Source: a virus. Taken from it: a stretch of DNA of 64,000 bases. Below are positions 31,789-56,325 of this stretch, one piece after another; position 1 is the first letter of the stretch, and each line of letters opens with the position of its first letter. The translations under genes were made by a program, and so were the position numbers. The stretch lies in the IMG/VR virus record IMGVR_UViG_3300045988_115163; one strand, written 5' to 3'. The notes under the pieces are model-generated. The model was given only the letters and a program-made list of their open reading frames with translations. It had not been told where the DNA came from and ran no database searches.

Positions 31789-31797
31789 GAGGTACAA

Positions 31798-33880: not shown

Positions 33881-33915
33881 TTAGTATCTTTGGGTACTAT
33901 CTAAAACTCTATTTC

Positions 33916-34305
33916 ATGGATTGGCAAAGCATCATAACGATTGTAAGTGTATTATTAGGTGGTGGTGGAGCGATTGCTCTATATAAAGCTAAACCTGAGA
34001 AGGTTTCTTATGAAATAAAGAATCTGCGTGAAATCATCGAAGAGATAAAGAAAAATCGAGATGAGGACAAAAGAGAGAATAGAGAAGAAATCGAGAGACT
34101 TAATCTTAAAATAGGAAAGTTAGAATTAAACGATGATATCAAGTCCAGAGCCATTTCAAAATGGCTCACTTGCCATTTTATACCAAGGGAAAGTAATTGT
34201 CCTGTAGCTGAATTTATCGAGAATGCAGAAAAGATTATTCAGAAGAAAACAGAACAGATTAACAATATAAAAGAAAAGAGAAATAATGAGCAAGCAATTA
34301 GTTAA
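33916..34305 (+). CDS. membrane-anchored coiled-coil protein
   Basis: N-terminal TM helix IITIVSVLLGGGGAIALY followed by a charged helical region. Overlaps the fibre start by 20 nt. Confidence 0.5.
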   Translation: MDWQSIITIVSVLLGGGGAIALYKAKPEKVSYEIKNLREIIEEIKKNRDEDKRENREEIERLNLKIGKLELNDDIKSRAISKWLTCHFIPRESNCPVAEFIENAEKIIQKKTEQINNIKEKRNNEQAIS

Positions 34306-43300: not shown

Positions 43301-46300
43301 TCCAGTATGAATATTTATGAAATATGGATATATGAATATAATACGACTGCGAATGCTTCTGTCATTACAATTGGTGCATATAATTATAATGGTGGTGGAA
43401 CTGCAAGTAGTGCGAAATGGGTAAATATTGGATACCATACAAAAGGTGCTTACAGTAAAGGTGTACGTTTAGCATATAACGGTAGTAAATGTGTTATTCT
43501 ATTAGGAACTACGGCTACTAAATGGTATTGCCCCAAAGTATATCTAAAAACAATTTATACAGGACATGGTAATCAGACTATTTGGGGAGGAACTTCTACC
43601 ATCTCTTTGATTACTTCGGAGACCGGATACACCAATATTGATACACCCGCTAGGATGGATGAGTTCTTCGGAGATACATCGGTAACAGGCAGACTTGCAG
43701 TAACCGGTGCAGGACACTTTGGGTACACTTATACCACAATGACAGCGGGTATTAATGTTAAGGGTGATAGCGCAACAACGGGTATCTCTATCTATGATGG
43801 TACGGGAAATACTGCTCGTTTATACCGAAAAGGGGATATTCTATATATTACCAGAGGCGGTAATGATAACGCTGGTCTTCTTATGAATACAGCCGGAAGT
43901 ATATATCCCGGAACAAATAATGCTTTGGCAAATGGAACAAGTTCTAATCGCTGGTCAAACGTATATACCCAATTACTTAACGTAGCAGGTCTGGCAACGA
44001 CTTCAAGAATACTTGCTTCTGACGAAATACAATCAACCTCAGCTAAGGCTTTCCGTGCCATTTATGGTAGCTATGGCTTTTTCATATATAACGATGGTAA
44101 TTCCTCCTATTTTATGTTGACTGCCAAAGACGACCAGTATGGAACTTACAATAGTTTAAGACCCCTGTATATAAATAACAGTACCGGTGTTGTAACTATG
44201 GAAAATGGTACAAACATTAGAGGTATTCTAAACGTAACAAATACTACAGAAGCTACCGCAACTACTGTTGCCGCTATAAAGACAGCAGGTGGTATTGGAG
44301 TCGCTAAACAGTTGAGAGTTGGCGGTGCTGTAACTTTCAGTTCTACTCTCAGTGTTACAGGTCAGATTACTGCATCCGGTGGACTTCGGATTGGCAACTA
44401 CTACCTGAAATCTACAGCGGACGGATTGGCACTTACTCACGTAACTACCGGAACGGTTGCTAACTTCTACGCTACTGGTGAAGTTTCTGCGGGTGGTGTA
44501 GGTTCAGGCGGTTCAGGCGGTGGCGGTGGACTAATCGAGAATGTGTATGGATATAGCAAATTGAATGGAGAGTATAAAGATACCGACCTCAACAACACAT
44601 TCAATGCTTATACCATTGCACAAATCAATAAGCGGGTAGTTAGTCTGGAAGGCGGTTCTGCATTGACTGTAACGACTACCGGTTCAGGTAATGCAGTGAC
44701 TTCGGTTGCCAAGTCCGGTACGGCTATTACCGTAACAAAGGGTACTACCTTTGTTGATATTACAAATACCCAAACTATTGGAGGAACAAAAACGTTCTCT
44801 TCATCTATACGAATGGGACGAAGTAGTCTTCATTATGTTAATAACTCAACGTCCAACAATGCTACAGGATTACATTGGAAGACAGCTAACTATGCAGCCA
44901 CTCAATTTGGTATTGGTTGCTTCACCACAAACAATGCTTCTCCGAGAGGATTTATCGGTTGGACTTCTGAGCCGTGGAATGTTGCAAATAGCTTAACGGT
45001 ATCTGAGACCTCTTTGACCTATAAAGGTAATGCAATCCTTCATGCTGCCAACTATAATACTTACGCTCCGACGAAAACGGGTGGTGGTGCTTCCGGTTCT
45101 TGGGGCATATCAATTACTGGCAATGCGGCTACCGCCACTACAGCTACTAAACTTGGGACAGCTACCATTGGCGCAGCGAATAAACCCATTTATCTGAACG
45201 CAGGTACTCCAACGGCACTCTCATCAACAGTAGGTGATAGCACTGTTCCGGCTTACCTAAATGCTGGTACGGTTACTGCCTGCTCATGGGGATTAGCCGG
45301 AGCTTCTGGAAAGCGTGCAAGAAAGAGTGGATATATAACTAGCAGTACTTCGGGGTTGGCTAGCTATTGGGGAAAGATAGCTTCCTTCAATTGGGGTGAT
45401 ACATCAAACGGTAGAGATATAACTCTTTATATACATTCTGCATTCAATAGTTTGTGGGGAACTGTTGTTATAAGAACTAGATGGAGTAGTGCAACCTCTA
45501 CTGTTATTGATTTTAGAATAATAAACGGTAATATTCCAACTAGCAGACTTCGATTGTATTATGATGTTTCATCTAAGGATAATGCTGTAACTTTGTGGGG
45601 AGACGTAGCTAGTCAATGGGGAGTATTTAATACATACGTATTGTCTGAAACGACAAGAACAAGTACTGAAATTGGCGATGTCACATTATATACTACATCG
45701 TTTACTACTGCTCAAACAGTGCCGACAAGTACGTATAAAGAACCAACTTATCTTACCATTCGCAATAATGCTGCTACTTCTGATGTTGCAGATAAGTTAG
45801 GGACTTCAACGGTTGGTTCTGGGATTAAGCCGATTTACCTAAATGCGGGAACGGCTACCGCTTCTACTTCAACTGTTGGTGCAGCCAATAAAGGTGTGTA
45901 CCTGTCAAGTGGTACTATTACTGCAATGTCTTCTACAGTCGGTTCTACAACTGTACCAGTGTATATGAATGCAGGAGCGATAACTGTTTGTAGTACTACA
46001 CTTGGAGTGAGTATCACCGGTAATGCAAAAACAGCTACTACTTTACAGACCACCCGTAAGATATTTAGCCAACCTTTTAGTGGCGCAGGTGACGTTGCCG
46101 GACAAGCGTTCGTATATGGTACTTATCAGGAGACTGCAAGTAGTAGGTATTCGAATGGTGGTCTACAAATAAGAGAGAATGGTCTAGTTGGTGATAAACA
46201 AACCGCAGATGGGTATGCTCCTGCTATCGGCTTCCATTGGGAAAACAGAATCGGTGCGAGCTTGATATTAACGACTTCGGGTTTCAAATTTATGAACTAC

Positions 46301-49300
46301 GCGTTTACTGGCTACCAGAATGTATATGGTATATTTAAAGGTAATGCCGATTCTGCAACTCAGGTATATAGTACACTGACCAATCCGACAACCGGTACTT
46401 GGTATGTGATTCCATTCCATACTGGTGCTTCAACGACAAATAAATTATTATTAAATAATAATGGGATACAGTACTATTCGGTAGAAGGAACGGCTTCTGC
46501 GCAGGGAGAGGCACTGATACAGATAGGAAATTCCACCGCTACCGGAACTGCTGGTAACAAGAGAGGACGTTTAAGATTATATAGTTCTTCATCCGGTTGG
46601 GCGGATTTCACTCTAACTGCTACAACAGGTAATTATACTCTCACTCTTCCTGCTGCTACCGGAACTGTAGCTCTAACTTCGAGCAACGTTGCTTCGGCTA
46701 CTAAGTTGCAGACTGCCCGCACTCTCTGGGGACAGAGCTTCAACGGTACGGCAAATGTGAGTGGAAGTTTGACCGGAGTAGGAAATATAACTGCCAGCGC
46801 CGGCATAAATATCATAAGTACAGGAGAGAACAATATTGGTATCTTACGTGGTGGTTCAGATGCTACGGCAGTAGTACTTAATGCTATAGCCTTTAAACCT
46901 TATGATGCTGCAACAAATAAACTGAATCTCGGAACATCGACAGCTAGATGGTTAGGCGTTTATGCCAATATAGGAAACTTCTCTAGTACTGTCACGGGTA
47001 CTCGATTTATCTCTACTGTTGCTACCGGAACAGCACCATTGACTGTATCTTCTACTACGGTGGTTACCAATCTGAATGCTGACATGGTAGATGGCATTCA
47101 CTCATCTAATATCCCGTTAGAATACGATGCTAGCTATAAACCAACTGGTACTACTGCAAGATGGATTAGAATCGCTTACTTTGACTATAGTAGTGCAAGT
47201 TATAGTTGGTCAGGCACATTTGCAATAACTAATACTTATGAAAATGATGAAAATAAAGGTTTAATATTTACCGTATCAACTGCACATGGTACTACTTCTC
47301 CTGTAATCACACAAATAGGAGGTTCTGGCGGAGTATTCACTTCCATTAGAATTGTTAAGGATACAACTACGGTATATCCTACTACAGCAAAGGTGTATTT
47401 GGAAGTATATTACAATTCAACTTCTGCGGCTAATAATGTTTACGTATCATATAAACCTGCAAATAGAGCAATTGGTAAATGGACGCTGTACACTACTTAT
47501 ACTGCGGGTAGTATTCCTACTGGTCACACTGCTATAGCTCAACTATATACTACTTCCGGTCTTTCTACGACTGCTAATTTGCGGGTACAAGGCGTAGCTG
47601 TAATTTTAGGTGCTACTAATCATAATGATAGACTGGATATTCAATCAGATGGCAAGATAGTTCCCCACTCAACAGCTACCAGACGGTCAGGCGTATATGG
47701 TGTATATGACTCTGCGAAGATTGGTCACATTTGGTCTATGGGAACTAATTATATGATTGCCGATGATGGTTCTGGATTTGGTAATCTATACGGATTTGCA
47801 TATCAGTATTCTTCAAGTCTTAGAGCCATTGGACACCAAGCAGTTTGGTGTGTTAATGGAAATCCAAGTGTTGCCATAGGATATAACTTCTGGGTAGCTA
47901 ACGCTGCAACAATCGGTGACACTTTAACTGTTACCGGAGCAGGCTCGGTAAATACCCTAACCATCAAAAATACAGAAGCAGTTGGGCATCTTAAATTTTC
48001 AAGAGGTAGCTTTAATTACATCACTGCTCCGGCTAGTGGAACAATTGCATTTATAGTAAATGGTCAAGCGGTTGGTGAAGCGACGGCTGACCTGATTATT
48101 CAAAATGGGGTTCTAAAAGCGGGTGCAGCGAATGCTACCGCTTTAGGACAAGATACTTGCAGATGGTCAAACATGTACTCTGTACTTTTGAATGTAAGTG
48201 GAGTAGCTACCTTGTCTTCTACGGTGAACATCGCAGGAGTACTGAATGCTAACAACGCTACGGACGCTACTAGCACAACGGCTGCGGGAGCAGTGTTCGA
48301 TGGTGGAGTAGGCATTGTGAAACAGCTTCGAGTGGGCGGAAATGTAACTATTGGCGGAAATGTAACTTTTGCAACCAGTGGTCTACTATCAGTACCTTAT
48401 TCTGGCGGACAATGGATTTCATTAGCTACCCGAACTAATCTTATAGCAGGCAATCAGAATACCTCAGAAGCTAGTGCACACGCATTATACCGAGTGAAGT
48501 CTTTTGCTGGGGATGCAGTAGTATTTGGAGGATTGAAAAACTCCATCGGATTTTACGGATTCTATAAAGCTCGTATTGATTCGGGTGATAACAGCTATGA
48601 TTGGAGAACAGTATGGGATAGTACTACGGGTAAATTATTACATAGTAAGGCATTTGAAGTATCCGGTGCGGTTACGTTCCGTAGTACATTAACTGTAGCT
48701 TCTACTGGATTGTTCAACTTGTCTACCGATGCAACCAGTACAACTGCCGCTGCGGTAAGAATTGTAGGTGGTTTAGCTGTTGGCAAGCAATTGCGAGTGG
48801 GTGGTGCGGCTACATTAAGCTCTACACTATCAGTGAGCAGTACGCTTAATGTAAGTGGAGTAGTAAACGCAAATAATGCAACCGATGCGACCAGTACCAC
48901 AGCAGCAAGCCTTGTTTGTGATGGCGGTGTCGGAATTGTTAAGCAGTTAAGAGTAGGTGGAGCAACCACGCTTAGTTCTACTCTCTCCGCAGCCGGAATT
49001 GTTTCCTTTACGAATGCAACTGATGCGACCAGCACGACTGCTGCGGCTGTGAAAGTCACCGGAGGACTTGGAGTAGCTAAACAACTAAGAGTAGGTTCAA
49101 ACGCTGTATTCACCAAAGGTATTTACATCAATGGCAATACAACGGGAGATGAATCTATCACGTTAGGTACATCTGGGGATAAAAAGATAAAGATGGGTGC
49201 AGGTGGTTCTCCCGGGACTAGATGGTCTGAAATCGCATTCTTCCCGAACTTTGCAAACAATGGTGGATTTACCGATATCAATCTGAATATACAGGCAGAA

Positions 49301-49756
49301 GGAACTATCCAGATGTCTTCGCAAGCGAAGTTTATATGGATATCCGGTGGAAACATTGCTGCATCCGGTGAAGTATCCGCTGGTTCTACTTCTGACCGGA
49401 ATCTAAAGAAGAACTTCTCTTTGGAAGACTATCAGCAAAGAGTACTAGACCTCGGGATGGTACAAGACTTTGAATATCGTGAAGAAGAGATGAAGCGTGC
49501 AGTCCGGACTTATAAGCCCGGACGACATACCTCATTAATCGCACAGGACATCAAATCTTGTACTTCAATGGTGTCCAAAGACAAAGATGGATATTTGAAG
49601 ATTAATCCGCTAGACAAAGAGTTCCTCTTCACCGTTGTAGGTGCGGTTCAACTCAATGTCCTTGGATTGCGTGAGGTGAAATCCGAAGTTGAAATATTGA
49701 AAGATGAAATAAGAGAGCTAAAAAAGAGAATAGAATATTTGGAAAGTTTAAAGTAG
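34286..49756 (+). CDS. giant modular tail fibre or tail-tip protein (5156 aa)
   Basis: Uninterrupted ORF with fibre-type repeats: KLGTATVGS..P.YLNAG, ATKLQTART..G.SFNGTAN, and ATDATSTTAA..GG.G..KQLRVGG. It also has Ala-rich helical tandem repeats and a C-terminal S74-type chaperone domain. Confidence 0.85.
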   Translation: MSKQLVKIFTYVDGVNDTPFPNEENQLIIPEYSFSDIRMGSVNLTATAMYPTCLDDKWVTGKQYADFRGERYFIVKTPSSSKSNDDVRYKHDIEFVSERNILETIYFYDVVSDNTSVDRYVSNSTKVLFYGDVHELVARLNYSLEYSQVSYRVVVDAGITSEVKQVSLEDVFVFDAIQEIFNIFELPFYFVGKTCHVGFTDNAITHTFRYGKDYELLSINKTNANYKITNRVTGTGSSDNIQFYYPNPSNDRAEIEAAGGKWITPAGTLMPPIYRDTDGAERFYNAINKRYINPETGEYYVFENEFTTASQKEQIVTFEDIKPTIKNTLNAAGLRIDEIIDVAFDKDDNDEVDESTGDYVHSYFYVKLNRFSGDYGFNLFEQPIVGSDASIVMTSGNCNACTFQIGVIEVEEDGKTVFKNPVQVDKNGNIAEGNYADKVKPNNIQANQQDTTQNEVWIALKKDNTTFGMVMPNKNGNIRPSYGDSFVITNIDMPQTYIYKAENELEEAILKYMANNNSEKFTFSIKLSRIFLAENPAIEALINSSARIDLEYNGKYHQLYVSSYTYRSDSEVLPEITIELADTLTISKNSIQTSIDSVKQDIMNTIGGVDFLKQGLKYFLRKDTEDIARFFISFLRGIKIGNYVSGGDIGGIFAVDGNGKTFIETDFLKVRMKAYFETLEIINTGSIAGRQIITPGGSIKCIKVVDREEIINEDGEKEEKVWNFYRCYFLAEQDGVKVENRFRKNDQALSQDFNIKEGVYENVSNHYYWRLVVGVGDDYIDLSKTDADTKSDAPAIGDVICQLGHRDDKVPERQNAMIFSAVDLYSPSLTMYAGINSYSYVNKDYISYGVDKTTNKAFMNVYGDTYIGDRNRTSYMEFKTGKGLKIKGQLEVGSTIGNGSTIEGALDKATQDAIDAATEDLTNYAKEVTEILNNIQYQIDGQIESFFEKYSPTLTNKPAVDWTTEELKKQHANDTFTNIDTGESWKWVKDGTTWKWSVIEDTATLKALAAASKAQDTADGKRRVFVAKPTNEQVYDVGDLWVNATYGTTYHNDILRAKTAKKAGEAFNISHWELASKYTDDTKANEAAEAAAAAQEAAEQAATAVDNLNTYVDGAFKDGVIEESEAQAIEKYINIVDNAKKTTDAAYTKLYANTYLTGAAKTGLKSAKDKLDIATTNLINSINTAIADGQTTVAEKNDVDAKFAAYNTANEAFSTAVEVANGAIQDLLKSYSDQAKEAAVAAQAAADAAQAAADSASDAVDDLNGYVDGAFKDGVIDEAEAKAIEKYINVVNGSKAATDATYTKLYSNKYLLGTAKENLKTAKDKLDVATTALLTSIQSAIADGKTTAEEKAAVDTKYADFNKANEDFNTAIEAANLSIQNMLKSYADAALAAAEAAQTSADAAKTAADNAAGAVGDLNDYVDGAFKDGIIDASEAQAIEKYINIVNNTKGEVKATFDKLYANVYLTGAAKTGLNSSYTALNTAITNLLNSINTAIADGKTTASEKADVDLKYASFNTAYASFNTAVETANKAIQDKLKTFADDAKALAESAQAVADAAKDRLDSWAEDGVISPTEKQGIKDEIARIKADKDNISAGYELYNLGEATAYNTAYTDYYNSLLVLSDTTKETIEIPTDFATKQTKYYTERTAALNAIASASKSAVDAAQAAADAAKSRLDSWAADGVISPAEKQSIKDERARILADKADITTGYTRYNLGTPTDYNTAYTAYDTALAALSKDTPEVITIPSDFATKQKNYYTKRTAAISAIDAATKSNADAAAAAAAKAQEDIDNVKTDINKINSDVAGLKNFTDDAFADGVVDRGEASAIGAYLKSIATVKADVDKSYTEVYANPLLAGTAKTTLNTTYTAFGKAVEELTTVIEAVVEKGIADATDRASVNGKYDAFNTKYGAFIAALNAANTYIQDQIESKAENALTEAVSYRYLKKAFSEYTIIEGGLVQNSLNVLGYTNDKKEFVVQAGMNGIYDASQTHGGIAAWYGGSMKDYFDYTDLDRPKDVAKGVDRMDGTGYRANGNLWWDENGEVHADPLSFFVGTETVGGLLASFQVVMTNKKPDYLIPKVPFQDLTISNNLTVGGDIILKDGILKWDAANNAFYVEKKDGSIASFYATGEVSAGGAGSGGSGGGGGLIENVYGSSSLGDEFSDSDLNNTFNAYSINQIYLDVKNLKSGAAVSLVVNGTGTVLTNIVKTGSTITATKGNLAFSSLTSKPTTIAGYGITDAYTKTQADGKYVLKSGSNMTGTLNWVGADANIYPILLGTNHYIGIDGSAGSSMLHWDGTRTHVGSLNGSVAIRSNATDLIHNYNGTGYIILDARNYNNYAPKKDGTGAGGNWAINVLGWAHRLHQALGNKTAEQVFTDNGVYYYQVSSAEDTGYPTDYGHGLMLQKSSGDTLTSSQAVLDIFTPTSGTNLVYLRTGIGNGTKITWQAFQQILHTGNYTSLITKLGTATVGSTVKPFYLNAGVPTAFTTTVGSASLPVYMNAGSITACSTTLGVSITGNAATATKLGTATVGSNTKFFYLNAGTPTASNASIGTGTHPIYLNGGVFTASTSTVGSASRGIYMTGGLLTAMSATVGSASLPVYMNAGTITQCSTTLGVSITGTAPRLTTTELTNQDLNSYTYTNYSGKLYYAGGSNTTTNVPSGVGAYGLMVWRIATGYTGHLMFDSAGDFRARFHNGTTWSAWDKLAYITDNVASATKLQTARTINGTSFNGTANITTANWGTARNLTIGGAVKSVNGSANVSFSLNEINAAYGRNVTYTGTTTAQGWYRLASTGQNINTTNSLFFISVTVSGQHSTFLLQVSTNYGNNPSLIQLGGSNYSTASIDQFRLVYHTTYSGHYGYLEVRSRGAMTDATFNVFLVGRANTTWTLSTALTAGSIPEGYTSKTLTPASASIVAPTFRGALVGNVTGNVTGNLTGNASTATSLQTARTLWGQSFNGTANITGTLLGVESLVARSGRINNFLGYFDYSGNPATGTICITLPNGWTSSMNIYEIWIYEYNTTANASVITIGAYNYNGGGTASSAKWVNIGYHTKGAYSKGVRLAYNGSKCVILLGTTATKWYCPKVYLKTIYTGHGNQTIWGGTSTISLITSETGYTNIDTPARMDEFFGDTSVTGRLAVTGAGHFGYTYTTMTAGINVKGDSATTGISIYDGTGNTARLYRKGDILYITRGGNDNAGLLMNTAGSIYPGTNNALANGTSSNRWSNVYTQLLNVAGLATTSRILASDEIQSTSAKAFRAIYGSYGFFIYNDGNSSYFMLTAKDDQYGTYNSLRPLYINNSTGVVTMENGTNIRGILNVTNTTEATATTVAAIKTAGGIGVAKQLRVGGAVTFSSTLSVTGQITASGGLRIGNYYLKSTADGLALTHVTTGTVANFYATGEVSAGGVGSGGSGGGGGLIENVYGYSKLNGEYKDTDLNNTFNAYTIAQINKRVVSLEGGSALTVTTTGSGNAVTSVAKSGTAITVTKGTTFVDITNTQTIGGTKTFSSSIRMGRSSLHYVNNSTSNNATGLHWKTANYAATQFGIGCFTTNNASPRGFIGWTSEPWNVANSLTVSETSLTYKGNAILHAANYNTYAPTKTGGGASGSWGISITGNAATATTATKLGTATIGAANKPIYLNAGTPTALSSTVGDSTVPAYLNAGTVTACSWGLAGASGKRARKSGYITSSTSGLASYWGKIASFNWGDTSNGRDITLYIHSAFNSLWGTVVIRTRWSSATSTVIDFRIINGNIPTSRLRLYYDVSSKDNAVTLWGDVASQWGVFNTYVLSETTRTSTEIGDVTLYTTSFTTAQTVPTSTYKEPTYLTIRNNAATSDVADKLGTSTVGSGIKPIYLNAGTATASTSTVGAANKGVYLSSGTITAMSSTVGSTTVPVYMNAGAITVCSTTLGVSITGNAKTATTLQTTRKIFSQPFSGAGDVAGQAFVYGTYQETASSRYSNGGLQIRENGLVGDKQTADGYAPAIGFHWENRIGASLILTTSGFKFMNYAFTGYQNVYGIFKGNADSATQVYSTLTNPTTGTWYVIPFHTGASTTNKLLLNNNGIQYYSVEGTASAQGEALIQIGNSTATGTAGNKRGRLRLYSSSSGWADFTLTATTGNYTLTLPAATGTVALTSSNVASATKLQTARTLWGQSFNGTANVSGSLTGVGNITASAGINIISTGENNIGILRGGSDATAVVLNAIAFKPYDAATNKLNLGTSTARWLGVYANIGNFSSTVTGTRFISTVATGTAPLTVSSTTVVTNLNADMVDGIHSSNIPLEYDASYKPTGTTARWIRIAYFDYSSASYSWSGTFAITNTYENDENKGLIFTVSTAHGTTSPVITQIGGSGGVFTSIRIVKDTTTVYPTTAKVYLEVYYNSTSAANNVYVSYKPANRAIGKWTLYTTYTAGSIPTGHTAIAQLYTTSGLSTTANLRVQGVAVILGATNHNDRLDIQSDGKIVPHSTATRRSGVYGVYDSAKIGHIWSMGTNYMIADDGSGFGNLYGFAYQYSSSLRAIGHQAVWCVNGNPSVAIGYNFWVANAATIGDTLTVTGAGSVNTLTIKNTEAVGHLKFSRGSFNYITAPASGTIAFIVNGQAVGEATADLIIQNGVLKAGAANATALGQDTCRWSNMYSVLLNVSGVATLSSTVNIAGVLNANNATDATSTTAAGAVFDGGVGIVKQLRVGGNVTIGGNVTFATSGLLSVPYSGGQWISLATRTNLIAGNQNTSEASAHALYRVKSFAGDAVVFGGLKNSIGFYGFYKARIDSGDNSYDWRTVWDSTTGKLLHSKAFEVSGAVTFRSTLTVASTGLFNLSTDATSTTAAAVRIVGGLAVGKQLRVGGAATLSSTLSVSSTLNVSGVVNANNATDATSTTAASLVCDGGVGIVKQLRVGGATTLSSTLSAAGIVSFTNATDATSTTAAAVKVTGGLGVAKQLRVGSNAVFTKGIYINGNTTGDESITLGTSGDKKIKMGAGGSPGTRWSEIAFFPNFANNGGFTDINLNIQAEGTIQMSSQAKFIWISGGNIAASGEVSAGSTSDRNLKKNFSLEDYQQRVLDLGMVQDFEYREEEMKRAVRTYKPGRHTSLIAQDIKSCTSMVSKDKDGYLKINPLDKEFLFTVVGAVQLNVLGLREVKSEVEILKDEIRELKKRIEYLESLK
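37546..38940 (+). repeat. three tandem 465-nt (155-aa) Ala-rich helical repeats inside the fibre gene
   Basis: The motif (D/G)xLNxYVDGAFKDG(V/I)I recurs at 37601, 38066 and 38531, an exact 465-nt period. A degenerate fourth copy lies near 39650-40090. Confidence 0.8.
38941..39625 (+). repeat. two tandem 342-nt (114-aa) repeats inside the fibre gene
   Basis: RLDSWA(E/A)DGVISP(T/A)EKQ(G/S)IKDE recurs at 38975 and 39317. Confidence 0.75.
41665..42150 (+). repeat. array of about 20-aa VGS..P.Y(L/M)NAG..T fibre repeats
   Basis: About six consecutive units. Similar clusters lie at about 45148-45290 and 45793-46040. Confidence 0.7.
49391..49753 (+). other. C-terminal intramolecular chaperone / autoproteolysis domain (peptidase S74-like)
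   Basis: S-D-R-N-L-K has the Ser...Lys(+5) dyad spacing. It is followed by NF..EDY...GRHTSLIAQDI...DGYLKINP and a terminal coiled coil. Confidence 0.7.
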
Positions 49757-50809: not shown

Positions 50810-50870
50810 ACTGTGTTTGTGTGAATAATATTCGTATTTTTTGATTTTTGATTCAAACCTCTTCTTCTGT

Positions 50871-50911
50871 AAAAGCCCTGCGTCAATCTGTTCCGATGCA
50901 GGGCTTTTTTT
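50871..50911 (+). terminator. rho-independent terminator abutting the left inverted repeat
   Basis: Stem AAAAGCCCTGC / GCAGGGCTTTT with a T7 run. The T-tract overlaps the start of IR-L. Confidence 0.6.
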
Positions 50912-50957
50912 ATGCACAGACTCTAACATCAACAAGTGGGCGAGGTACAAACCGGTA
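50908..50957. repeat. inverted repeat, left copy (IR-L, 50 bp)
   Basis: TTTTATGCACAGACTCTAACATCAACAAGTGGGCGAGGTACAAACCGGTA is the exact reverse complement of 53290-53339. Confidence 0.9.
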
Positions 50958-52259
50958 TGTTTACCTACTGTTCACAAAAACGATACTTTCGATAATGATA
51001 CAAAAATGTGGGGAGAGGTTCGTTCTGATGTATCTACTTGGGATAGACCTTGGTTTTATGGTTCTATAGCGTATCCGGTGTATATTGTGCCCATAATAAG
51101 TAGTCTTAGTGATTTAGGAAGTAATGGTTCTCCTAATGAAGCTGCAATATGGAAATATAATCCTCCATTTGGATATCCACATGCTCCTTTCCGAATGACA
51201 GATTTTTTAGGATATAATCACAATGCTTTCCCTCCTGTATATGTTCGTATGTCTGACCAAATTATAATTAATGGTACTTATGATACAACCATTGAAGAAT
51301 GGGGAACAGATAAAAGGTCGGGAGAATGGGAGTTTAAAGAAATATTAGAAGTTATAAATACCAATACACAAGTATATGCCGGTATTGCGATTAGAAATAT
51401 TACTAGAAACGTTCTAGTAGGATATGTAAAAACAGAACCATTAACAGGCACTCTAGCGGATTATGAAAATGGTGTTTTCCGTTTAAATCCAGCTAGCGGT
51501 TCTCCAATTGCAGATGGCGGATTTGGGCATAAGGTATATGCTAATGATTTAATAGATGTCTACATATTCCTATCTGTTTCTCCCGGAGAAACAGATGTTG
51601 ATTCAATGCTAAAATACAGTGCCTATGTAGATTCTGATTCAGAGTGTTATAAAAGATACATAGTTGGTCATAACACTATTACCGTTGTTGTAAAATACGC
51701 TTTTGCTGAATTGACAAGTACTATACAACAATTTATTTCTGGTAAGGTGTACTATGTAAATGACAATGATTATGGTGGAGATGGAAGCGTCTATAAAGTT
51801 ACTAGCTATATTGAAGCTCTTTATGGTTCTGTAAATATAGATAAAACTCCTAATAGTGATTATAGTAGTTTCCGTATTTATCTTTCTGGTGATTGCATTG
51901 GAACAAAATCAAATGGAGAGACATTCTATTCATCGGCTGTACCTATAATTACATATCTAACGAAAACCAATGGAAATTTCAATAATGCAAATTTCAAATA
52001 CACATTGAATGGAACAGAAGATATGAAATTCATTGGGTATAATTCTGTAAGGGATGCACAGTCACAGGTTAACGGTACGGAATTTATCGGATGTCCTATT
52101 TATGATAGTATTGAATCCAACAATGTGGATGCAGATAATGTTGGAGTATTATCACAAAGAAGAATTGAGCTTAGATGTAGCGCAGTAAGTAGCAAGCAAT
52201 ACTATATGATAAGTATGCAAAGCAAGAATGATAACAATGTTGTTACTATTTTACCTTAA
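50958..52259 (+). CDS. silent alternative C-terminal cassette of the RBP-like gene (no own N-terminus or ATG)
   Basis: Homologous to 52303-53427 and 54215-55492 (GYPHAPFRMTDFLGYNHNAFPP versus GYPNSPFRMRDFDGYYHDSTP). Upstream of IR-L there is only terminator sequence, and the track start is a TTG inside it. Confidence 0.55.
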   Translation, partial: CLPTVHKNDTFDNDTKMWGEVRSDVSTWDRPWFYGSIAYPVYIVPIISSLSDLGSNGSPNEAAIWKYNPPFGYPHAPFRMTDFLGYNHNAFPPVYVRMSDQIIINGTYDTTIEEWGTDKRSGEWEFKEILEVINTNTQVYAGIAIRNITRNVLVGYVKTEPLTGTLADYENGVFRLNPASGSPIADGGFGHKVYANDLIDVYIFLSVSPGETDVDSMLKYSAYVDSDSECYKRYIVGHNTITVVVKYAFAELTSTIQQFISGKVYYVNDNDYGGDGSVYKVTSYIEALYGSVNIDKTPNSDYSSFRIYLSGDCIGTKSNGETFYSSAVPIITYLTKTNGNFNNANFKYTLNGTEDMKFIGYNSVRDAQSQVNGTEFIGCPIYDSIESNNVDADNVGVLSQRRIELRCSAVSSKQYYMISMQSKNDNNVVTILP

Positions 52260-52262
52260 ACA

Positions 52263-52298
52263 TATTCTAAACCCATCGAACTCGATGGGTTTAGAATA
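52263..52298. terminator. perfect bidirectional hairpin between the two cassettes
   Basis: TATTCTAAACCCATCGA-AC-TCGATGGGTTTAGAATA. Confidence 0.6.
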
Positions 52299-52302
52299 CT
52301 CA

Positions 52303-53427
52303 TTATAACCATTGTCCGGTTTCAAAATTAAACTTTCTGGTAAATATATTGCCAGCATTGCCTACGGTTTGAACGCCTCTTATGGATATTTCCCAAATGG
52401 CATTATAGGTAGGTAAGAGTAGATTAGTTCCCGGGTCTACCATAAATGCAGCGGAAGAAAGACCTTGCACTATTTGTACTTTTGAACCATATTCATATAC
52501 ATCTCCGGTTTCTTCATCGGATATTTCTATACTCATGGTAAATTGCAATTGACCACCATATTCATTTTTAACCGTTCCGGTCATGTAATAAATCTCATAT
52601 ACATAAGAACCGCTAACCAAGTTCTTTTGATATTCTATATTTAAGGTAGTTACTGAAATATATTGTGCAATAAAATTATATGTTTCTAATAAGACTCTTT
52701 TATGTCCCTTCCCTTCTTCATATTCCAAATAGTACATACTATTTACTTCTATAGGTGGGGTTTCAGTAGGAGCACCAGTAAATGAGTATTGGCTCAATAT
52801 AGCATACACATCTACTTGCTCACCAGCCAGCCATGTATCCCTAACAGGAATGGTTAAATCTTCTGGTGGAAACCATTCAGCAAGAGTTTTTTTAGTCGTC
52901 TTCCATATTGTACCTTTAGTTGGATGAACCACCAATAAGCCGGGAAACCAAGATACTTCATTGCCGTAACTAAATAAATCAAGCATTTCTATATTACCTT
53001 CTTTCCATGAAGTAGCATAATCATCAAATGCAATTATGACATAGTTATTGCTATCCGCTTTATTTAGATAGGCCTTATCCGGTATTCCTATTTCAATAGA
53101 TGGTGTAGAATCATGGTAGTATCCATCAAAATCTCTCATCCTAAATGGCGAATTTGGATATCCTTCTGGACGTTGATATATCCATGCCATATTAGAACCA
53201 ATAGAGCTTGTATTTACAAATGGAATAGAAAAGCCATATTTTACTTTTTTCCGTTCTTCTTCTGTAATCGGGCTGTACGTTTTGTACTTTACCGGTTTGT
53301 ACCTCGCCCACTTGTTGATGTTAGAGTCTGTGCATAAAACACCTACTTTTCTTGAACTGCTACCTATAGCCTGACCAATGTCTTTAGTGGTGACAGGTTT
53401 AGTAACAATACCATTACTATACCCCAT
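52303..53427 (-). CDS. RBP-like / tail-fibre-like protein, currently expressed variant
   Basis: ATG at 53427 after AAAGGGGGTG. The first 29 codons lie outside IR-R. Paralog of 54215-55492. Confidence 0.6.
   Translation of the reverse strand: MGYSNGIVTKPVTTKDIGQAIGSSSRKVGVLCTDSNINKWARYKPVKYKTYSPITEEERKKVKYGFSIPFVNTSSIGSNMAWIYQRPEGYPNSPFRMRDFDGYYHDSTPSIEIGIPDKAYLNKADSNNYVIIAFDDYATSWKEGNIEMLDLFSYGNEVSWFPGLLVVHPTKGTIWKTTKKTLAEWFPPEDLTIPVRDTWLAGEQVDVYAILSQYSFTGAPTETPPIEVNSMYYLEYEEGKGHKRVLLETYNFIAQYISVTTLNIEYQKNLVSGSYVYEIYYMTGTVKNEYGGQLQFTMSIEISDEETGDVYEYGSKVQIVQGLSSAAFMVDPGTNLLLPTYNAIWEISIRGVQTVGNAGNIFTRKFNFETGQWL
53290..53339. repeat. inverted repeat, right copy (IR-R, 50 bp)
   Basis: Exact reverse complement of 50908-50957. 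Encodes (V)LCTDSNINKWARYKPV in the same frame as IR-L. Confidence 0.9.
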
Positions 53428-53683
53428 AGTCACCCCCTTTCGTAGCAACGCATCCGGTAACTAGCACTATAGAGTGAGAGCTATCGAATGCGTTTACATG
53501 TACATCTCCATCAATTATGATGGCGCAACTGATATCATATTGGGTGTCTAGTTCCTCATCATAGCCTGAAATTATATTTCCTGATAACTTTCCTTCCGAA
53601 ATTAAATTTCCTTTAACTACAAGGGTAACTCTCTCTCTCTCTCTCTCTCTCTCTAAGGGGAGGTGTAAATTATTTTTAATCAT
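53417..53683 (-). CDS. hypothetical 88-aa protein carrying an (AG)13 tract
   Basis: Its ATG overlaps the stop of the AP2 gene (ATGATTAA). Its stop overlaps the RBP start by 11 nt. Codons 11-18 read ERERERER. Confidence 0.45.
   Translation of the reverse strand: MIKNNLHLPLERERERERVTLVVKGNLISEGKLSGNIISGYDEELDTQYDISCAIIIDGDVHVNAFDSSHSIVLVTGCVATKGGDYGV
53629..53654. repeat. dinucleotide microsatellite (CT)13 / (AG)13
   Basis: 26 nt of perfect CT repeats on the plus strand. Confidence 0.95.
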
Positions 53684-54212
53684 CGTATTCTACTTTATAA
53701 TTAACAATAGCATTATACACTTTCTCAGGAATAACATCTTTATATTTATCCGCTGTCTCCTTAAAGTATTTCTCCCTTTCTATTTTATACGCATCGAATG
53801 CCTCTTCTGGACTATTAAAATATCCAAGGTCTAAACGTCCTCTTTTACCATTAATAACCTTTTTTACTCTAGCCCTGAATTTACCACAATGAAAGTCTAC
53901 ACCTACTGGATATTTCCCTCTAATTTTATTTGATTTAGTGAATAAACTGTTTATAAAAGCAGGAACAAAACAGCAATATTCAGGACAATAAACACGATTA
54001 CCCTTTTTTAACATGTCTTTATCTATCTGGAAACCATCAATGTAGTTATTTTTAAACCATTCAAAGAAACATTCAAAATCCATCCACTCTTCACATATAG
54101 TTACTCCCCTATAAGCATACGTTCTTGAACCATAGTCTTTTAGAGAGCATCTATATCTCATTGCATTCCATACTCTTTTTGCCTTTACTCTAAGTTCTTT
54201 TTCCTTTTCCAT
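53676..54212 (-). CDS. AP2-domain DNA-binding protein (homing-endonuclease-associated type)
   Basis: GVDFHCGKFRARVKKVINGKRGRLDLGYFNSPEEAFDAYKIEREKY fits the AP2 fold pattern. The N-terminus WNAMRYRC...YRGVTICEEW is common in phage AP2 proteins. Confidence 0.6.
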   Translation of the reverse strand: MEKEKELRVKAKRVWNAMRYRCSLKDYGSRTYAYRGVTICEEWMDFECFFEWFKNNYIDGFQIDKDMLKKGNRVYCPEYCCFVPAFINSLFTKSNKIRGKYPVGVDFHCGKFRARVKKVINGKRGRLDLGYFNSPEEAFDAYKIEREKYFKETADKYKDVIPEKVYNAIVNYKVEYDD

Positions 54213-54214
54213 AA

Positions 54215-55492
54215 TCACGAAATTGTAATAGGTACATAATTGTGGTAATCAATATCTTCAATGAACATCTTCTTTTTATCCGATTTGCGGATAAGGTAGA
54301 ACGTAACATTCCCTTTAGGGAATCCATCCGAACCGGTAGACCCGTCAGCGAATGAGTGCATGATGTAGTTTGCCACCGGTTGCGGACTGTAGGTAATTTT
54401 AGCAGTTACGCTGCTTATACCCGTTCCACTTGCCGTCGCACTACCGGACAGACCCTCAAATACCAAATCGTTGGATATGACACCGCTAGGTAGTTTAAAT
54501 TGTCCATTCCATGAACCGCAATATAACTCAATCGTATATTGGGATAAATCCAAAGTAACAGAGTTTCCTTTGGAGCTATGGAAGTAGATTCGGAAGGTGA
54601 TAACCCATGTTCCCGGTACAGACGCTTTGTTCGCCAACAGGTCAACCTCGTCGATTGTGACTGGCTCAACATAGGCTTCTTCATTGGTAAACAGTCTAAG
54701 ATATTCCATCTTATCGCCTGCATCTTCAAACACAAGCGGAATAAGCGGAGTGATTTTAGATAAACCGGAATTTTCTACATTGCTGGGGATTGTCGTTTCC
54801 TTTACTAAAGTAAGATATACAGATAGTTCAACCTGCTTTCCAGCATCTAACAGCCAACTGTTGATATCCATTTGGTAGTAGTCCGAGCTTCCCCATTTAT
54901 GGTTAGGCGGACTCAATACAAATTGATAGTTCGATGGCAGGGTATCCTTCGTTCGATATATGAACGCAAGACGATACTCTGGGTTAGTTGCACTAGCTGG
55001 GTTGTACTTGAAGAATTCCGAAAAAGGAATATCTGCATTAGCCTGAGAGTAATACAACCGATACATGGACTGTCCATCCTTGTTTATCAGTTGATTCATG
55101 TTGAAGTGGATGGGAGCATCTGCATAATGATTGTATCCATCAAAATCAAGAGACCTTGCCCATTCACCGCTTTTAGGAGGATTATAAATCCATTTTGCTA
55201 TGCCGTCCACTGTACCAAAAGTGGGAAGAGAGGAAACAATAGCTGTTCCGTCAGTCAAGAGGAATCCGTAGTTGTCTCCCATATCTCCCTTAAACCACTC
55301 TGGGTCGTCTTCGTGACTAGGCTTAGAATATCGAACCGGTTTTTTCTTAGAAAACATATTGATTTGCTTATGCGTATTGTAGCACGCATAGGCTAAAGCA
55401 TATCCATCTTCTCTTCTGGAAATTCCAAGAACAGGGTATATGTCTTTAGAGACTTGAACCGGTCTGGTAATGATACCATTCTCGTGCGCCAT
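54215..55492 (-). CDS. RBP-like / tail-fibre-like protein, third paralog
   Basis: ATG after GGGAGG. The N-terminus MAHENGIITRPV...KKKPVRYSKP parallels MGYSNGIVTKPV...RYKPVKYKT. LDFDGYNHYADAP is conserved. Confidence 0.6.
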   Translation of the reverse strand: MAHENGIITRPVQVSKDIYPVLGISRREDGYALAYACYNTHKQINMFSKKKPVRYSKPSHEDDPEWFKGDMGDNYGFLLTDGTAIVSSLPTFGTVDGIAKWIYNPPKSGEWARSLDFDGYNHYADAPIHFNMNQLINKDGQSMYRLYYSQANADIPFSEFFKYNPASATNPEYRLAFIYRTKDTLPSNYQFVLSPPNHKWGSSDYYQMDINSWLLDAGKQVELSVYLTLVKETTIPSNVENSGLSKITPLIPLVFEDAGDKMEYLRLFTNEEAYVEPVTIDEVDLLANKASVPGTWVITFRIYFHSSKGNSVTLDLSQYTIELYCGSWNGQFKLPSGVISNDLVFEGLSGSATASGTGISSVTAKITYSPQPVANYIMHSFADGSTGSDGFPKGNVTFYLIRKSDKKKMFIEDIDYHNYVPITIS

Positions 55493-55505
55493 ATAGACCT
55501 CCCTT

Positions 55506-55931
55506 CTAGACTATATGGGACTTCCAAGATTGGGTGGTTTCTTTTTTATTTAATTTCTTTTGGCGTCTTTTGAAATCTTCTTTCAGTTCATTCTTCAATG
55601 CTAAGATTTCAGCCTTATTAAACCCAATTTCGTGCCCTTTGAATTGTCTCGACTTAATCCCATGCTTTTTCATTAAAGCTACAAATCCTGCTCTGTTTGA
55701 ACCGTATCCCAATTCTTCCATCGCTTCATCGTAATTATAATAATCAGATGGTTTCACATACTCACTACTCACTTTTTCCAATGAGTTCACCGCACTGGCA
55801 AGTTCATCTTCTGAACAATCTGCACTGAATAAATCAAATATTCTCGAAAAGACTGTCTCGAAGACAATGCGCCTTATTGGCGATAACTTATCAATTTCTC
55901 CTTTGATGATGTCAAAGGTCTCCGCTTTCAT
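55506..55931 (-). CDS. hypothetical protein
   Basis: ATG at 55931 lies 10 nt after the upstream stop. The track start at 56030 would overlap the upstream gene by 89 nt. Confidence 0.45.
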   Translation of the reverse strand: MKAETFDIIKGEIDKLSPIRRIVFETVFSRIFDLFSADCSEDELASAVNSLEKVSSEYVKPSDYYNYDEAMEELGYGSNRAGFVALMKKHGIKSRQFKGHEIGFNKAEILALKNELKEDFKRRQKKLNKKETTQSWKSHIV

Positions 55932-55941
55932 GGCGGCAATC

Positions 55942-56325
55942 TTACTTGATACTGTCTTCATATCGCTTTTTCCGTTTAAGTTTACGAACTTTCTTGAAAT
56001 GTCGGATACCAAGGATAATGGTTGCGACAATAGTAACTGCCCAAAGACTAGAGAGGACAGCCAAAAATAGATAGGGGTCAGGAACTAAATCAAATTTTTG
56101 GTCAAGACACGTGAAAGTATCTGTGAGAAAAACTGATAAAGCTAAAAATCTGGCGTATTCACAATTATACTTCGGATTATCCTTTGCTGCTAAATATAGA
56201 ATATACTCTAGCAAGAAACGGTAATGTTCTGATTTTGAAATCACATATCCGTCCCAAGCAAATACAAGTGCCACTAAAAAATAAATGGCAATGAAAAATA
56301 TAGATAATCGAACTAATTGATTCAT
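55942..56325 (-). CDS. multi-pass membrane protein
   Basis: Four hydrophobic helices and a basic tail KKVRKLKRKKR. Confidence 0.5.
   Translation of the reverse strand: MNQLVRLSIFFIAIYFLVALVFAWDGYVISKSEHYRFLLEYILYLAAKDNPKYNCEYARFLALSVFLTDTFTCLDQKFDLVPDPYLFLAVLSSLWAVTIVATIILGIRHFKKVRKLKRKKRYEDSIK

What the first reader, a model, noticed from the sequence alone, without database searches (positions are those of the whole stretch)
53629..53654. (AG)13 dinucleotide tract inside a translationally coupled ORF just upstream of the switchable RBP gene
Seen in the sequence:
- A perfect 26-nt CT/AG microsatellite lies at codons 11-18 (ERERERER) of the 88-aa ORF 53417-53683.
- That ORF's ATG overlaps the stop of the upstream AP2 gene, and its stop overlaps the ATG of the RBP-like gene by 11 nt.
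- By my reading, loss or gain of one AG unit puts a stop within about 5 codons after the tract. Only tract lengths that differ by multiples of 3 units keep the frame.

Established knowledge: such tracts undergo slipped-strand mispairing and drive phase variation in bacteria.

Inference: repeat-length changes could turn the small protein on or off and, through translational coupling, alter expression of the downstream receptor-binding gene. This would be a second layer of stochastic control next to the inversion switch. Long perfect dinucleotide repeats are not seen anywhere else in this window.
Basis: partly seen in the sequence, partly recalled or inferred. Interest (0 to 1): 0.7.

Follow-up and report, generated by a model that had tools for sequence, protein, structure and literature searches.

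The report
Slippery AG repeat switching a phage gene
A perfect 26-base AG repeat near the start of a small gene in a human-gut phage changes length between otherwise identical genomes and so turns that gene on or off, and related phages switch the same gene with a run of G's, which suggests gut phages randomly vary a protein tied to their host-recognition genes.

Summary
(AG)13 lies on the minus strand at 53629-53654 and encodes ERERERER in an 88-aa ORF. That ORF overlaps the AP2-like gene's stop by 8 nt and the receptor-binding-protein (RBP) gene's ATG by 11 nt. It is the only long dinucleotide repeat in the window.

In about 20 independent human-gut assemblies the 530 flanking bases are essentially identical, yet the tract has 7, 9, 10, 13, 16 or 20 units. 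Protein records add 4. Most alleles are in frame (n = 1 mod 3). Two natural alleles are OFF (n = 9 and 20).

The tract sits at the 3' junction of an AP2-type mobile gene that inserted after codon 7 of a conserved ~75-aa phage gene. The repeat-bearing leader replaces the lost N-terminus. A relative with about 30% protein divergence keeps a perfect tract.

Outside the two AG-tract lineages (a few partial loci aside), family members, including one from a crAss-like phage, carry a G5-G12 run at a conserved Gly motif. About a quarter of those are out of frame. The (AG)n lineages lack that run.

Best reading: a slipped-strand ON/OFF switch for the small protein, which is a new variant of known phage phase variation. 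The effect on the downstream RBP gene is untested.

The parts
53629..53654 (-). (AG)13 perfect dinucleotide tract, encoding ERERERER. This is the hypermutable element. The ORF is in frame only when the unit number n = 1 mod 3.
   Evidence: Natural lengths of 7, 9, 10, 13, 16 and 20 units, plus 8 with a deletion. Protein variants with 1 to 5 ER units.
53655..53683 (-). Start of the replacement leader: ATG overlapping the AP2-like gene's stop (ATGATTAA) followed by IKNNLHLPL. Contains TTACACCTCCCC, which is almost unchanged in the diverged relative L017.
   Evidence: Leader identity to L017 is 15 of 18 aa. The model has low confidence here, pLDDT 51 for residues 1-10.
53417..53683 (-). Small ORF of 88 aa: an 18-codon leader plus a 70-aa body. 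The body belongs to a conserved family of ~75-aa, all-beta phage proteins of unknown function.
   Evidence: 44 family representatives. AlphaFold2 pLDDT 80.6. The only structural matches are family members in phage cr106_1 and Myoviridae sp. ctByu2.
53417..53427 (-). 11-nt overlap between the small ORF's stop and the RBP gene's ATG (ATGGGGTATAG), preceded by the Shine-Dalgarno-like sequence AAAGGGGGTGA.
   Evidence: A tight stop/start arrangement is conserved in L017 (ATGAGTAA) and in other family loci.
53676..54218 (-). AP2-like gene resembling the DNA-binding part of a homing endonuclease (180 aa from GTG, 178 aa from ATG 54212). It is inserted into the small gene and uses that gene's original start and first codons (MIMEKEK).
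   Evidence: PHROG HNH-endonuclease families match, C-terminal half only. Homologues carry a sub-threshold AP2 domain. The gene is absent at this site in L003. At least 386 relatives in IMG/VR, several per genome.
54197..54218 (-). Left junction of the insertion: GTGATTATGGAAAAGGAAAAAG is identical to the start of the uninterrupted small gene in L003. Similarity ends immediately after it.
   Evidence: In the protein alignment the ER repeat lines up with the ancestral EKEK.
52303..53427 (-). Downstream RBP-like gene (374 aa) with a constant 46-aa head and a switchable C-terminal part.
   Evidence: Called as 374 aa or 479 aa in different assemblies. 46 + 433 = 479 matches the inverted state.
53290..53339 (.). 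Right arm of the perfect 50-nt inverted repeat, inside the RBP head.
   Evidence: Several contigs end here.
50908..50957 (.). Left arm of the perfect 50-nt inverted repeat.
50841..52259 (+). Alternative RBP C-terminal cassette on the opposite strand. It is joined to the head after inversion.
54215..55492 (-). Upstream RBP-like paralogue (425 aa), which precedes the small gene in all relatives.
   Evidence: 71% identical to its L017 counterpart.

Best explanation
The (AG)13 tract is a slipped-strand switch of the contingency-locus type for a small conserved phage protein.

**Origin.** An AP2-type mobile gene inserted after codon 7 of a ~75-aa gene that lies between two receptor-binding-protein (RBP) genes, and it took over that gene's start. 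The remaining 70 codons are now translated from a new ATG that overlaps the AP2 gene's stop. Translation runs through an 18-codon leader whose second half is the AG repeat.

**Switching.** Replication slippage changes the number of AG units. Only n = 1 mod 3 (4, 7, 10, 13, 16) reads into the protein body. Every other length stops 4-5 codons after the tract, about 200 nt before the RBP gene's start.

**What is shown.**
- The tract mutates far faster than its flanks.
- Natural ON and OFF alleles both exist, and ON predominates.
- The perfect repeat persists across deep divergence.
- Sister lineages carry a poly-G run in the same gene instead, with many OFF alleles.

**What is inferred.**
- The switching is reversible and selected as bet-hedging.
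- The small protein is needed to make or mount the downstream RBP.
- The OFF state also lowers RBP translation, through loss of termination-reinitiation coupling or through polarity.
For: **Hypermutability.** The 530 nt flanking the tract are identical to the window in 14 of 17 other loci, while n runs from 7 to 20. Protein-cluster members have 1-5 ER units.

**Frame selection.** 17 of 19 intact-leader assemblies are in frame, against 1 in 3 expected if frame did not matter. Among loci sampled through the neighbouring AP2 gene, which is independent of frame, 9 of 10 are in frame.

**Natural OFF alleles.** L001 has n=20 and a 26-aa product. L025 has n=9 and no small gene is called. The RBP gene is still called in both and is full length in L001.

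**Moving between the in-frame lengths** 7, 10, 13 and 16 requires either OFF intermediates or 3-unit jumps.

**No allele has an interrupted repeat.** L017 keeps G(AG)12 in frame although it has diverged: AP2 69%, RBP1 71% and small-ORF body 40% identity. L018's contig ends inside the tract.

**Same gene, different repeat.** Every other family locus whose start could be read has a G5-G12 run at the conserved Gly motif. 19 are in frame and 7 out of frame, and two contigs start at the run. GGG is only 8.1% of Gly codons in this phage, and 1 of 93 Gly-Gly pairs is encoded GGG-GGG. The (AG)n lineages have lost the G run: SGNI in the window lineage and NTGK in L017.

**Conserved arrangement.** The stop/start overlap with the downstream ~330-420-aa gene is conserved.
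Against: - No read-level data, so heterogeneity within a population and reversibility are not shown.
- ON alleles dominate. This also fits simple purifying selection on an unstable linker.
- The assemblies are not phylogenetically independent. Counting distinct alleles only gives 4 in frame of 6 (P = 0.10).
- Some poly-G OFF calls could be homopolymer sequencing or assembly errors.
- The function of the small protein is unknown: no Pfam, PHROG or PDB match.
- Coupling to the RBP gene is untested. That gene has its own Shine-Dalgarno-like sequence, and the RNA fold of the region is not exceptional (z = -1.54).
Confidence: 0.62

Rival explanations
1. The tract is a non-adaptive mutational hot spot. 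It would be an unstable by-product of the purine-rich junction left by the AP2 insertion, encoding a dispensable, disordered ER linker. Selection only removes frameshifted variants, and the OFF alleles are transient deleterious mutants.
For: About 90% of alleles are in frame. The leader's amino acids vary: P9 to H, T or S, and H7 to Q. Leader confidence in the model is low. The ER repeat aligns with the ancestral EKEK, so it could have grown from GAAAAGGAAAAAG.
Against: One synonymous change (GAG to GAA, or AGA to CGN) would stabilise the tract. Yet it is perfect in more than 20 assemblies and in the diverged L017 lineage. OFF alleles reach consensus in 2 samples. The same gene carries a poly-G run, unusual for the codon usage, in every other lineage, and 7 of 26 of those are OFF.
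Confidence: 0.24
2. The tract is a frame adaptor carried by the mobile AP2 cassette. It would belong to the cassette's 3' end, and its main role would be to let slippage quickly restore the reading frame of whichever gene the cassette splits. Switching would be a side effect.
For: The tract lies exactly at the right-hand edge of the insert. The AP2 3' end, the leader and the tract are conserved together between the window and L017, while similarity drops sharply just after the tract. The AP2 family is abundant and present in several copies per phage genome.
Against: Among 80 other AP2-family loci none has a dinucleotide repeat next to the gene. In L036-L038 the AP2-like gene sits upstream of an intact small gene with no leader. 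AP2 divergence (69%) matches that of neighbouring genes (65-71%), which points to one old insertion rather than repeated mobility.
Confidence: 0.1
3. The length differences are sequencing or assembly artefacts: PCR stutter, or collapse of a low-complexity tract.
For: Dinucleotide repeats stutter in PCR-based libraries. One contig ends inside the tract.
Against: The same lengths recur in independent samples and with different assemblers (MEGAHIT, SPAdes, Logan). Differences are 3-7 units, not plus or minus 1. Errors would not favour in-frame lengths.
Confidence: 0.03

Closest known systems
Hypermutable poly-G tracts in Campylobacter phage RBP genes (Sorensen et al. 2021, Cell Rep 35:109214; cited in PMC11868660 and PMC10877375)
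   Same: A simple-sequence repeat inside a phage coding sequence, linked to host recognition, switches expression by slippage and produces mixed phage populations.
   Different: Here the repeat is a dinucleotide. It lies in a small gene upstream of the RBP gene rather than in the RBP gene. It sits in a replacement leader created by a mobile-gene insertion. The host environment is the human gut. No experiment has been done. The poly-G runs found in sister lineages are the closer analogue.
Contingency loci in T-even and other phages (Gomez, Barrick and Waters 2025 preprint, PMC12633550)
   Same: Slippage-prone repeats in phage genes give reversible frameshifts that are used for bet-hedging.
   Different: The repeats analysed there were runs of a single base, 6 or more long, in many genes, with mutant frequencies around 1e-4. 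Here there is one long dinucleotide array, an extreme outlier in its genome, whose alleles differ at the level of the assembly consensus.
Dinucleotide repeats at the 5' end of bacterial outer-membrane-protein genes, such as the CT repeats in Helicobacter pylori hopZ, oipA and sabA (from my own knowledge, not checked here)
   Same: A CT/AG dinucleotide array in the N-terminal coding region. One frame in three is ON, and a stop follows shortly in the other frames.
   Different: Those are bacterial chromosomal genes with the repeat in a signal-peptide region. This one is in a phage, and the leader is a de novo N-terminus.
Invertible tail-fibre segments of phages Mu (Gin) and P1 (Cin) (from my own knowledge)
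   Same: The neighbouring element swaps alternative RBP C-termini between inverted repeats, and both orientations are seen in assemblies.
   Different: This applies to the adjacent switch, not to the tract. No recombinase gene was found among the window ORFs tested.
Free-standing homing-endonuclease genes that split phage genes, such as mobE in the Aeromonas phage Aeh1 nrdA gene (from my own knowledge)
   Same: A mobile gene sits inside a host-phage gene, with presence/absence polymorphism at one site and the downstream gene part still expressed.
   Different: No nuclease domain was detected in the 180-aa protein. The downstream part is rescued by an overlapping restart and a repeat-encoded leader.

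Membership tests
SSR-mediated phase-variable (contingency) locus | A perfect simple-sequence repeat long enough for frequent slippage, and an outlier in its genome | tested here: met
   13 perfect units. The next longest dinucleotide repeat is 5 units, and there were 0 matches in 100 shuffles.
SSR-mediated phase-variable (contingency) locus | The repeat is placed so that a change in unit number switches a gene's expression | tested here: met
   It lies in the 5' coding region. Only n = 1 mod 3 reads through, and the other frames stop after 4-5 codons.
SSR-mediated phase-variable (contingency) locus | Repeat number differs among otherwise near-identical genomes | tested here: met
   n = 7, 9, 10, 13, 16 and 20 with 0 mismatches in 530 flanking nt. 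Protein records show 1-5 ER units.
SSR-mediated phase-variable (contingency) locus | High-frequency, reversible switching within a clonal population | not testable with these tools
   This needs raw reads or lysates. The only hint is a contig that ends inside the tract.
SSR-mediated phase-variable (contingency) locus | ON and OFF states differ in phenotype or fitness | not testable with these tools
   The function of the small protein is unknown.
Translationally coupled gene pair | The upstream stop overlaps or abuts the downstream start | tested here: met
   11-nt overlap in the window, 8 nt in L017, and from a 14-nt overlap to a 3-nt gap in other family loci.
Translationally coupled gene pair | Downstream translation depends on upstream translation | not testable with these tools
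   The RNA fold is not exceptional (z = -1.54). A Shine-Dalgarno-like AAAGGGGGTGA precedes the ATG, but only 9 of 56 genes in the window have such a motif.
Homing-endonuclease-type mobile gene (AP2/HNH class) | Presence/absence polymorphism at a defined site in related genomes | tested here: met
   L003 lacks the gene at exactly this site, and the left junction is identical up to ATGGAAAAGGAAAAAG.
Homing-endonuclease-type mobile gene (AP2/HNH class) | A nuclease catalytic domain (HNH or similar) | tested here: not met
   Only positions 216-389 of the 420-position profile phrog_953 are matched. Pfam finds no nuclease domain.
Homing-endonuclease-type mobile gene (AP2/HNH class) | An AP2 DNA-binding domain | tested here: inconclusive
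   The window protein has no Pfam AP2 hit. Homologue P0032 scores 28.5 bits against a cut-off of 33.3. Precomputed PF00847 marks appear on several homologues.
Invertible RBP or tail-fibre switch (Gin/Cin-like) | Inverted repeats flank alternative C-terminal cassettes, and both orientations are seen | tested here: met
   50-nt perfect inverted repeat. 374-aa and 479-aa products in different assemblies. Contigs break at the repeat.
Invertible RBP or tail-fibre switch (Gin/Cin-like) | A cognate site-specific recombinase gene | tested here: inconclusive
   None was found among about 30 window ORFs scanned. The window covers about 64 of about 86 kb.

The most novel reading that the evidence does not exclude
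The ~75-aa gene family may be a conserved, repeat-switched gate that sits in front of receptor-binding-protein genes in abundant human-gut phages, Crassvirales included. On this reading selection acts on the mutability itself. When an AP2-type mobile gene destroyed the gene's start, a new AG microsatellite in the rescue leader took over the switching role, and the ancestral poly-G run was lost. Together with the adjacent DNA inversion, this would give a two-layer random control of host recognition: which RBP tip is used, and whether the module is deployed at all.
Probability: 0.4. Interest if true: 0.82.

Novelty: new variant of a known kind. Interest (0 to 1): 0.7.

Why it matters
Repeat-driven phase variation is a classic bacterial strategy. 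In phages it has only recently been shown, for Campylobacter phages and T-even phages, and only with single-base runs.

This case would extend it in three ways:
- to a dinucleotide array;
- to widespread human-gut phages;
- to a small, uncharacterised gene that consistently precedes RBP genes.

Three patterns argue for selection on switchability rather than chance. Different repeats occupy the same gene in different lineages. The Gly codons forming the G runs are strongly atypical for the genome. The two repeat types are complementary: lineages with (AG)n lack the G run.

If confirmed, this would help explain how gut phages keep mixed host ranges. It would also matter for virome assembly, because contigs break at these tracts, and it would give a handle on the function of an unknown protein family.

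Tried and rejected
- **GenBank phages.** Megablast of 52000-56000 and 24000-34000 against the phage collection found no match. A tblastn search with the small protein found only cr106_1.
- **Small protein annotation.** No Pfam or PHROG family even at E up to 10. No PDB match by sequence or by fold. No real similarity to the window's 5156-aa protein.
- **Host.** A scan of 185,579 bacterial and archaeal genomes for the small gene found nothing, so there is no host clue.
- **Locus scan with the full family alignment** failed because it lacked a conserved stretch. A narrower alignment worked.
- **RNA structure around the RBP start.** The fold is not better than shuffles (z = -1.54). The idea that the leader's CACCUCCCC sequesters the RBP gene's Shine-Dalgarno-like sequence was dropped: the helix is short, and ribosomes cross it in both ON and OFF states.
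- **Leader conservation.** 19 of 21 nt conserved with L017 is not significant against the 75% identity of the neighbouring AP2 3' end (my estimate P about 0.07).
- **Tract as a promoter spacer.** Rejected because 26 nt or more cannot fit in a promoter spacer, and the tract lies inside a translated ORF.
- **Dinucleotide repeats next to 80 other AP2-family genes.** None found.
- **Invertase search.** None found among the scanned window ORFs.

Full report
**1. Observation.**
The window contains one period-2 array, (CT)13 on the plus strand and (AG)13 on the minus strand, at 53629-53654, with 100% matches. It is an extreme outlier. The next longest dinucleotide repeat in the 64 kb is 5 units, there is no G or C homopolymer of 7 or more, and (AG)8 never appears in 100 dinucleotide-preserving shuffles.

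On the minus strand it encodes ERERERER at codons 11-18 of the 88-aa ORF 53417-53683. The ORF's ATG overlaps the stop of the upstream 180-aa gene (ATGATTAA). Its stop lies 11 nt inside the downstream 374-aa gene, whose ATG is at 53427.

**2. Context.**
The window is part of a phage of about 86 kb, 37.7% G+C, recovered repeatedly from human-gut metagenomes. It has a large terminase subunit, RecT and an SbcC-like protein.

Gene starts are preceded by A-rich sequence, and Shine-Dalgarno-like motifs are rare (9 of 56 genes). This is the pattern expected for a Bacteroidota host, which is an inference.

The minus-strand gene order is:
- a 425-aa RBP-like gene (54215-55492);
- the AP2-like gene (53676-54218);
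- the small ORF;
- a second RBP-like gene (52303-53427).

The head of the second RBP-like gene ends in a perfect 50-nt inverted repeat, 53290-53339, paired with 50908-50957. Different assemblies encode either a 374-aa or a 479-aa product. The latter equals the 46-aa head plus the 433-aa tail of the plus-strand ORF 50841-52259. Several contigs stop at the repeat. The inversion switch is therefore real and active in nature.

**3. The tract is hypermutable.**
I collected relatives in four ways: by protein patterns, by DNA patterns, through the neighbouring AP2 and RBP genes, and from the protein cluster.

In about 20 independent assemblies the tract has these lengths:

| Units | Occurrence |
|---|---|
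| 13 | most frequent |
| 10 | seven assemblies |
| 7 | L029 |
| 16 | L026 |
| 9 | L025 |
| 20 | L001 |
| 8, with a ~100-nt deletion | L002 |

The L002 deletion fuses the AP2 reading frame in frame to the small-protein body. Protein records add a 1-ER allele (82 aa), which implies 4 units.

The 300 nt upstream and 230 nt downstream of the tract are identical to the window in 14 of 17 other loci, and no repeat is interrupted. The tract therefore changes much faster than point substitutions accumulate.

**4. Frame.**
Only n = 1 mod 3 joins the ATG to the protein body. The other two upstream frames are closed by TAA/TAA or by TAG just before the tract.

- 17 of 19 intact alleles are in frame, against one third expected if frame were irrelevant (binomial P = 6e-7).
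- The assemblies share ancestry, so this figure overstates the evidence. At the level of distinct alleles the count is 4 of 6 (P = 0.10).
- In the sample anchored on the AP2 protein, which does not depend on frame, 9 of 10 are in frame.
- Two OFF alleles are the consensus in their samples: n = 20 gives MIKNNLHLPLERERERERERERELPL*, and n = 9 gives ...ERERESYPCS*. The RBP gene is still called in both and is full length in L001.

The ORF is therefore under selection to be translated, and the OFF state is viable.

**5. Origin of the tract.**
Relatives such as L003 have no AP2-like gene. There the small gene is 75-77 aa and starts (MI)MEKEKVDMLIRGNL... directly after the 425-aa gene.

The window is identical to L003 up to GTGATTATGGAAAAGGAAAAAG and then diverges. 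This means the AP2-like gene was inserted after codon 7 and now uses the small gene's start (MIMEKEK...). Similarity to L003 resumes after the tract at the same codon register (V-x-x-L-x-x-GNL). In the protein alignment the ER repeat lines up with the displaced EKEK.

The inserted gene has these properties:
- It matches PHROG HNH-endonuclease families, but only over their C-terminal DNA-binding half.
- It has no detectable nuclease domain and only sub-threshold AP2 signals in homologues.
- It belongs to a family with at least 386 relatives in IMG/VR, often several per genome.

The tract-bearing leader is therefore a replacement N-terminus that rescues a gene split by a mobile element.

**6. 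Deep conservation.**
L017 is a clearly diverged relative:

| Gene | Identity to the window |
|---|---|
| 425-aa RBP-like gene | 71% |
| AP2-like gene | 69% |
| DUF3310 protein | 65% |
| Small-protein body | 40% |
| Second RBP-like gene | 20% |

It still has ATGATTGAAAATAAATTACACCTCCCCCCT followed by a perfect G(AG)12 in frame (ERERERER), and an ATGAGTAA stop/start overlap with its RBP gene. A second sample with the same AP2 protein has at least 13 AG units, and its contig ends inside the tract.

AP2 divergence matches that of the neighbouring genes, so a single old insertion is the simplest history. One synonymous change would break the repeat, yet it stayed perfect. That argues for selection on the repeat.

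**7. The small gene is a repeat-bearing gene family.**
A profile search found 44 representatives of about 73-80 aa. Their consensus is xKxKVDxLIxGNLI...GG(G)...FDxSxAxIIxGDVxVxxFD...VVVTG...KGG. AlphaFold2 gives an all-beta model with pLDDT 80.6. The only structural neighbours are family members in the crAss-like phage cr106_1 and in Myoviridae sp. ctByu2. In cr106_1 the gene again directly precedes a 386-aa gene, downstream of a very large protein gene whose role (tail or fibre) I did not test.

At the DNA level every family locus outside the (AG)n lineages whose start could be read encodes the Gly motif as a G run:
- G5-G8 in L003-type phages;
- G7 in cr106_1;
- G9-G11 in L036-L038, where an AP2-like gene lies immediately upstream;
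- G6-G12 in 23 further IMG/VR loci.

19 of these are in frame and 7 are out of frame: L129, L130, L131, L133, L143, L037 and L038. Two contigs begin exactly at the run. Within one close group the run is 6, 9, 10, 11 or 12 with near-identical flanks.

In the window's own genes GGG is only 8.1% of 1080 Gly codons, and 1 of 93 Gly-Gly pairs is encoded GGG-GGG. The G runs are therefore not a product of codon usage. The two (AG)n lineages have lost the run: SGNI in the window lineage and NTGK in L017. One slippery repeat per gene, of whichever type, is what selection for switchability predicts.

**8. Mechanism.**

*Shown:*
- a hypermutable repeat;
- a one-in-three reading frame;
- natural ON and OFF alleles;
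- conservation of the repeat;
- a parallel repeat in sister lineages;
- a conserved tight stop/start junction with the downstream RBP-like gene.

*Inferred:*
- that switching is reversible within populations;
- that the small protein acts with the downstream RBP, for example in its assembly or attachment;
- that the OFF state reduces RBP synthesis, because ribosomes then terminate about 200 nt upstream, which abolishes termination-reinitiation and may expose the RNA to polarity.

The RBP gene has its own Shine-Dalgarno-like AAAGGGGGTGA. The regional RNA fold is unremarkable. Coupling therefore remains a hypothesis.

**9. Rivals.**
- **An unstable but non-adaptive linker.** This fits the excess of ON alleles and the variable leader residues. 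It does not fit the perfect conservation of the repeat, the consensus OFF alleles, or the family-wide G runs.
- **A frame adaptor carried by the mobile cassette.** This fits the position at the junction. However, no other AP2-family locus has such a repeat.
- **An artefact.** This is unlikely given recurrent lengths across samples and assemblers, and the bias toward in-frame lengths.

**10. Comparison and novelty.**
Repeat-mediated phase variation in phages is established for Campylobacter phage poly-G tracts in RBP genes (Sorensen et al. 2021, as cited in PMC11868660 and PMC10877375). It has also been proposed for single-base runs in T-even and other phages (PMC12633550).

My literature searches found nothing on dinucleotide tracts in phages or on this gene family. 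The library does not cover all journals.

The closest mechanistic analogue is the 5' CT repeat of Helicobacter outer-membrane-protein genes, which I cite from my own knowledge.

I class this as a new variant of a known kind. The new points are a dinucleotide switch in a rescue leader created by a mobile-gene insertion, control of a small conserved gene in front of an invertible RBP gene, and a poly-G counterpart across gut phages including a crassvirus.

Noticed in passing
window 50908-50957 and 53290-53339; segment 50958-53289: A perfect 50-nt inverted repeat brackets two convergent RBP C-terminal cassettes. Assemblies encode either the 374-aa or the 479-aa form, and several contigs end at the repeat. 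No link between orientation and tract length is apparent.
   Followed up: partly
window 52263-52298: A perfect 17-nt palindrome (TATTCTAAACCCATCGA / TCGATGGGTTTAGAATA, 2-nt loop) lies between the two convergent RBP cassettes. It could be a two-way terminator.
   Followed up: no
L116-L143, L031-L038, L035 4986-5222: G5-G12 runs at the conserved Gly motif of the small-gene family in many gut phages, including crAss-like cr106_1 (G7). 7 of 26 are out of frame, and two contigs start at the run.
   Followed up: yes
L002 5990-6030 (IMGVR_UViG_3300000290_000012): A deletion of about 100 nt between GGAGACAG in the AP2-like gene and the AG tract leaves (AG)8. It fuses the AP2 frame in frame to the small-protein body (…KYFKETRERERVTLVVKGN…).
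   Followed up: partly
L019 3001-3672, L020 (P0030, 223 aa): A variant in which the 425-aa RBP-like gene is missing. The N-terminus of a relative of the 174-aa upstream protein is fused to the C-terminal 70% of the AP2-like protein. The small gene (n=10) is intact.
   Followed up: no
P0022 (86 aa, protein cluster): A frameshifted, truncated copy of the AP2-like protein, which suggests the inserted gene is decaying in some genomes.
   Followed up: no
window 53430-53441; L017 3768-3778; L036 2193-2201: The family's conserved C-terminal KGG is encoded by a Shine-Dalgarno-like AAAGGNGG a few bases before the RBP gene's ATG, although such motifs are rare in this genome. Whether the constraint is on the protein or on the RNA is unresolved.
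   Followed up: partly
window 53655-53668: The leader contains CACCTCCCC, which resembles the 3' end of 16S rRNA, and it is nearly unchanged in L017. The conservation is not statistically significant and no role was found.
   Followed up: partly
window 17087-17569 (-): A separate homing endonuclease gene with NUMOD4 and HNH_3 domains, so this phage carries other mobile nuclease genes.
   Followed up: no
window 34286-49756 (+): A single 5156-aa ORF just upstream of the RBP region. The database holds a 5191-aa protein of similar size that gave a weak hit to the small-protein profile, but the window's protein shows no real similarity.
   Followed up: partly
L003, about 7300-8061: Two direct copies of a segment of about 100 nt (TTTACGTTTCATCGAACCGCTACTTCTTAGGGAGC…GGTTGATAAGTTAATCAAATT) lie downstream of the RBP region in the AP2-less relative.
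   Followed up: no
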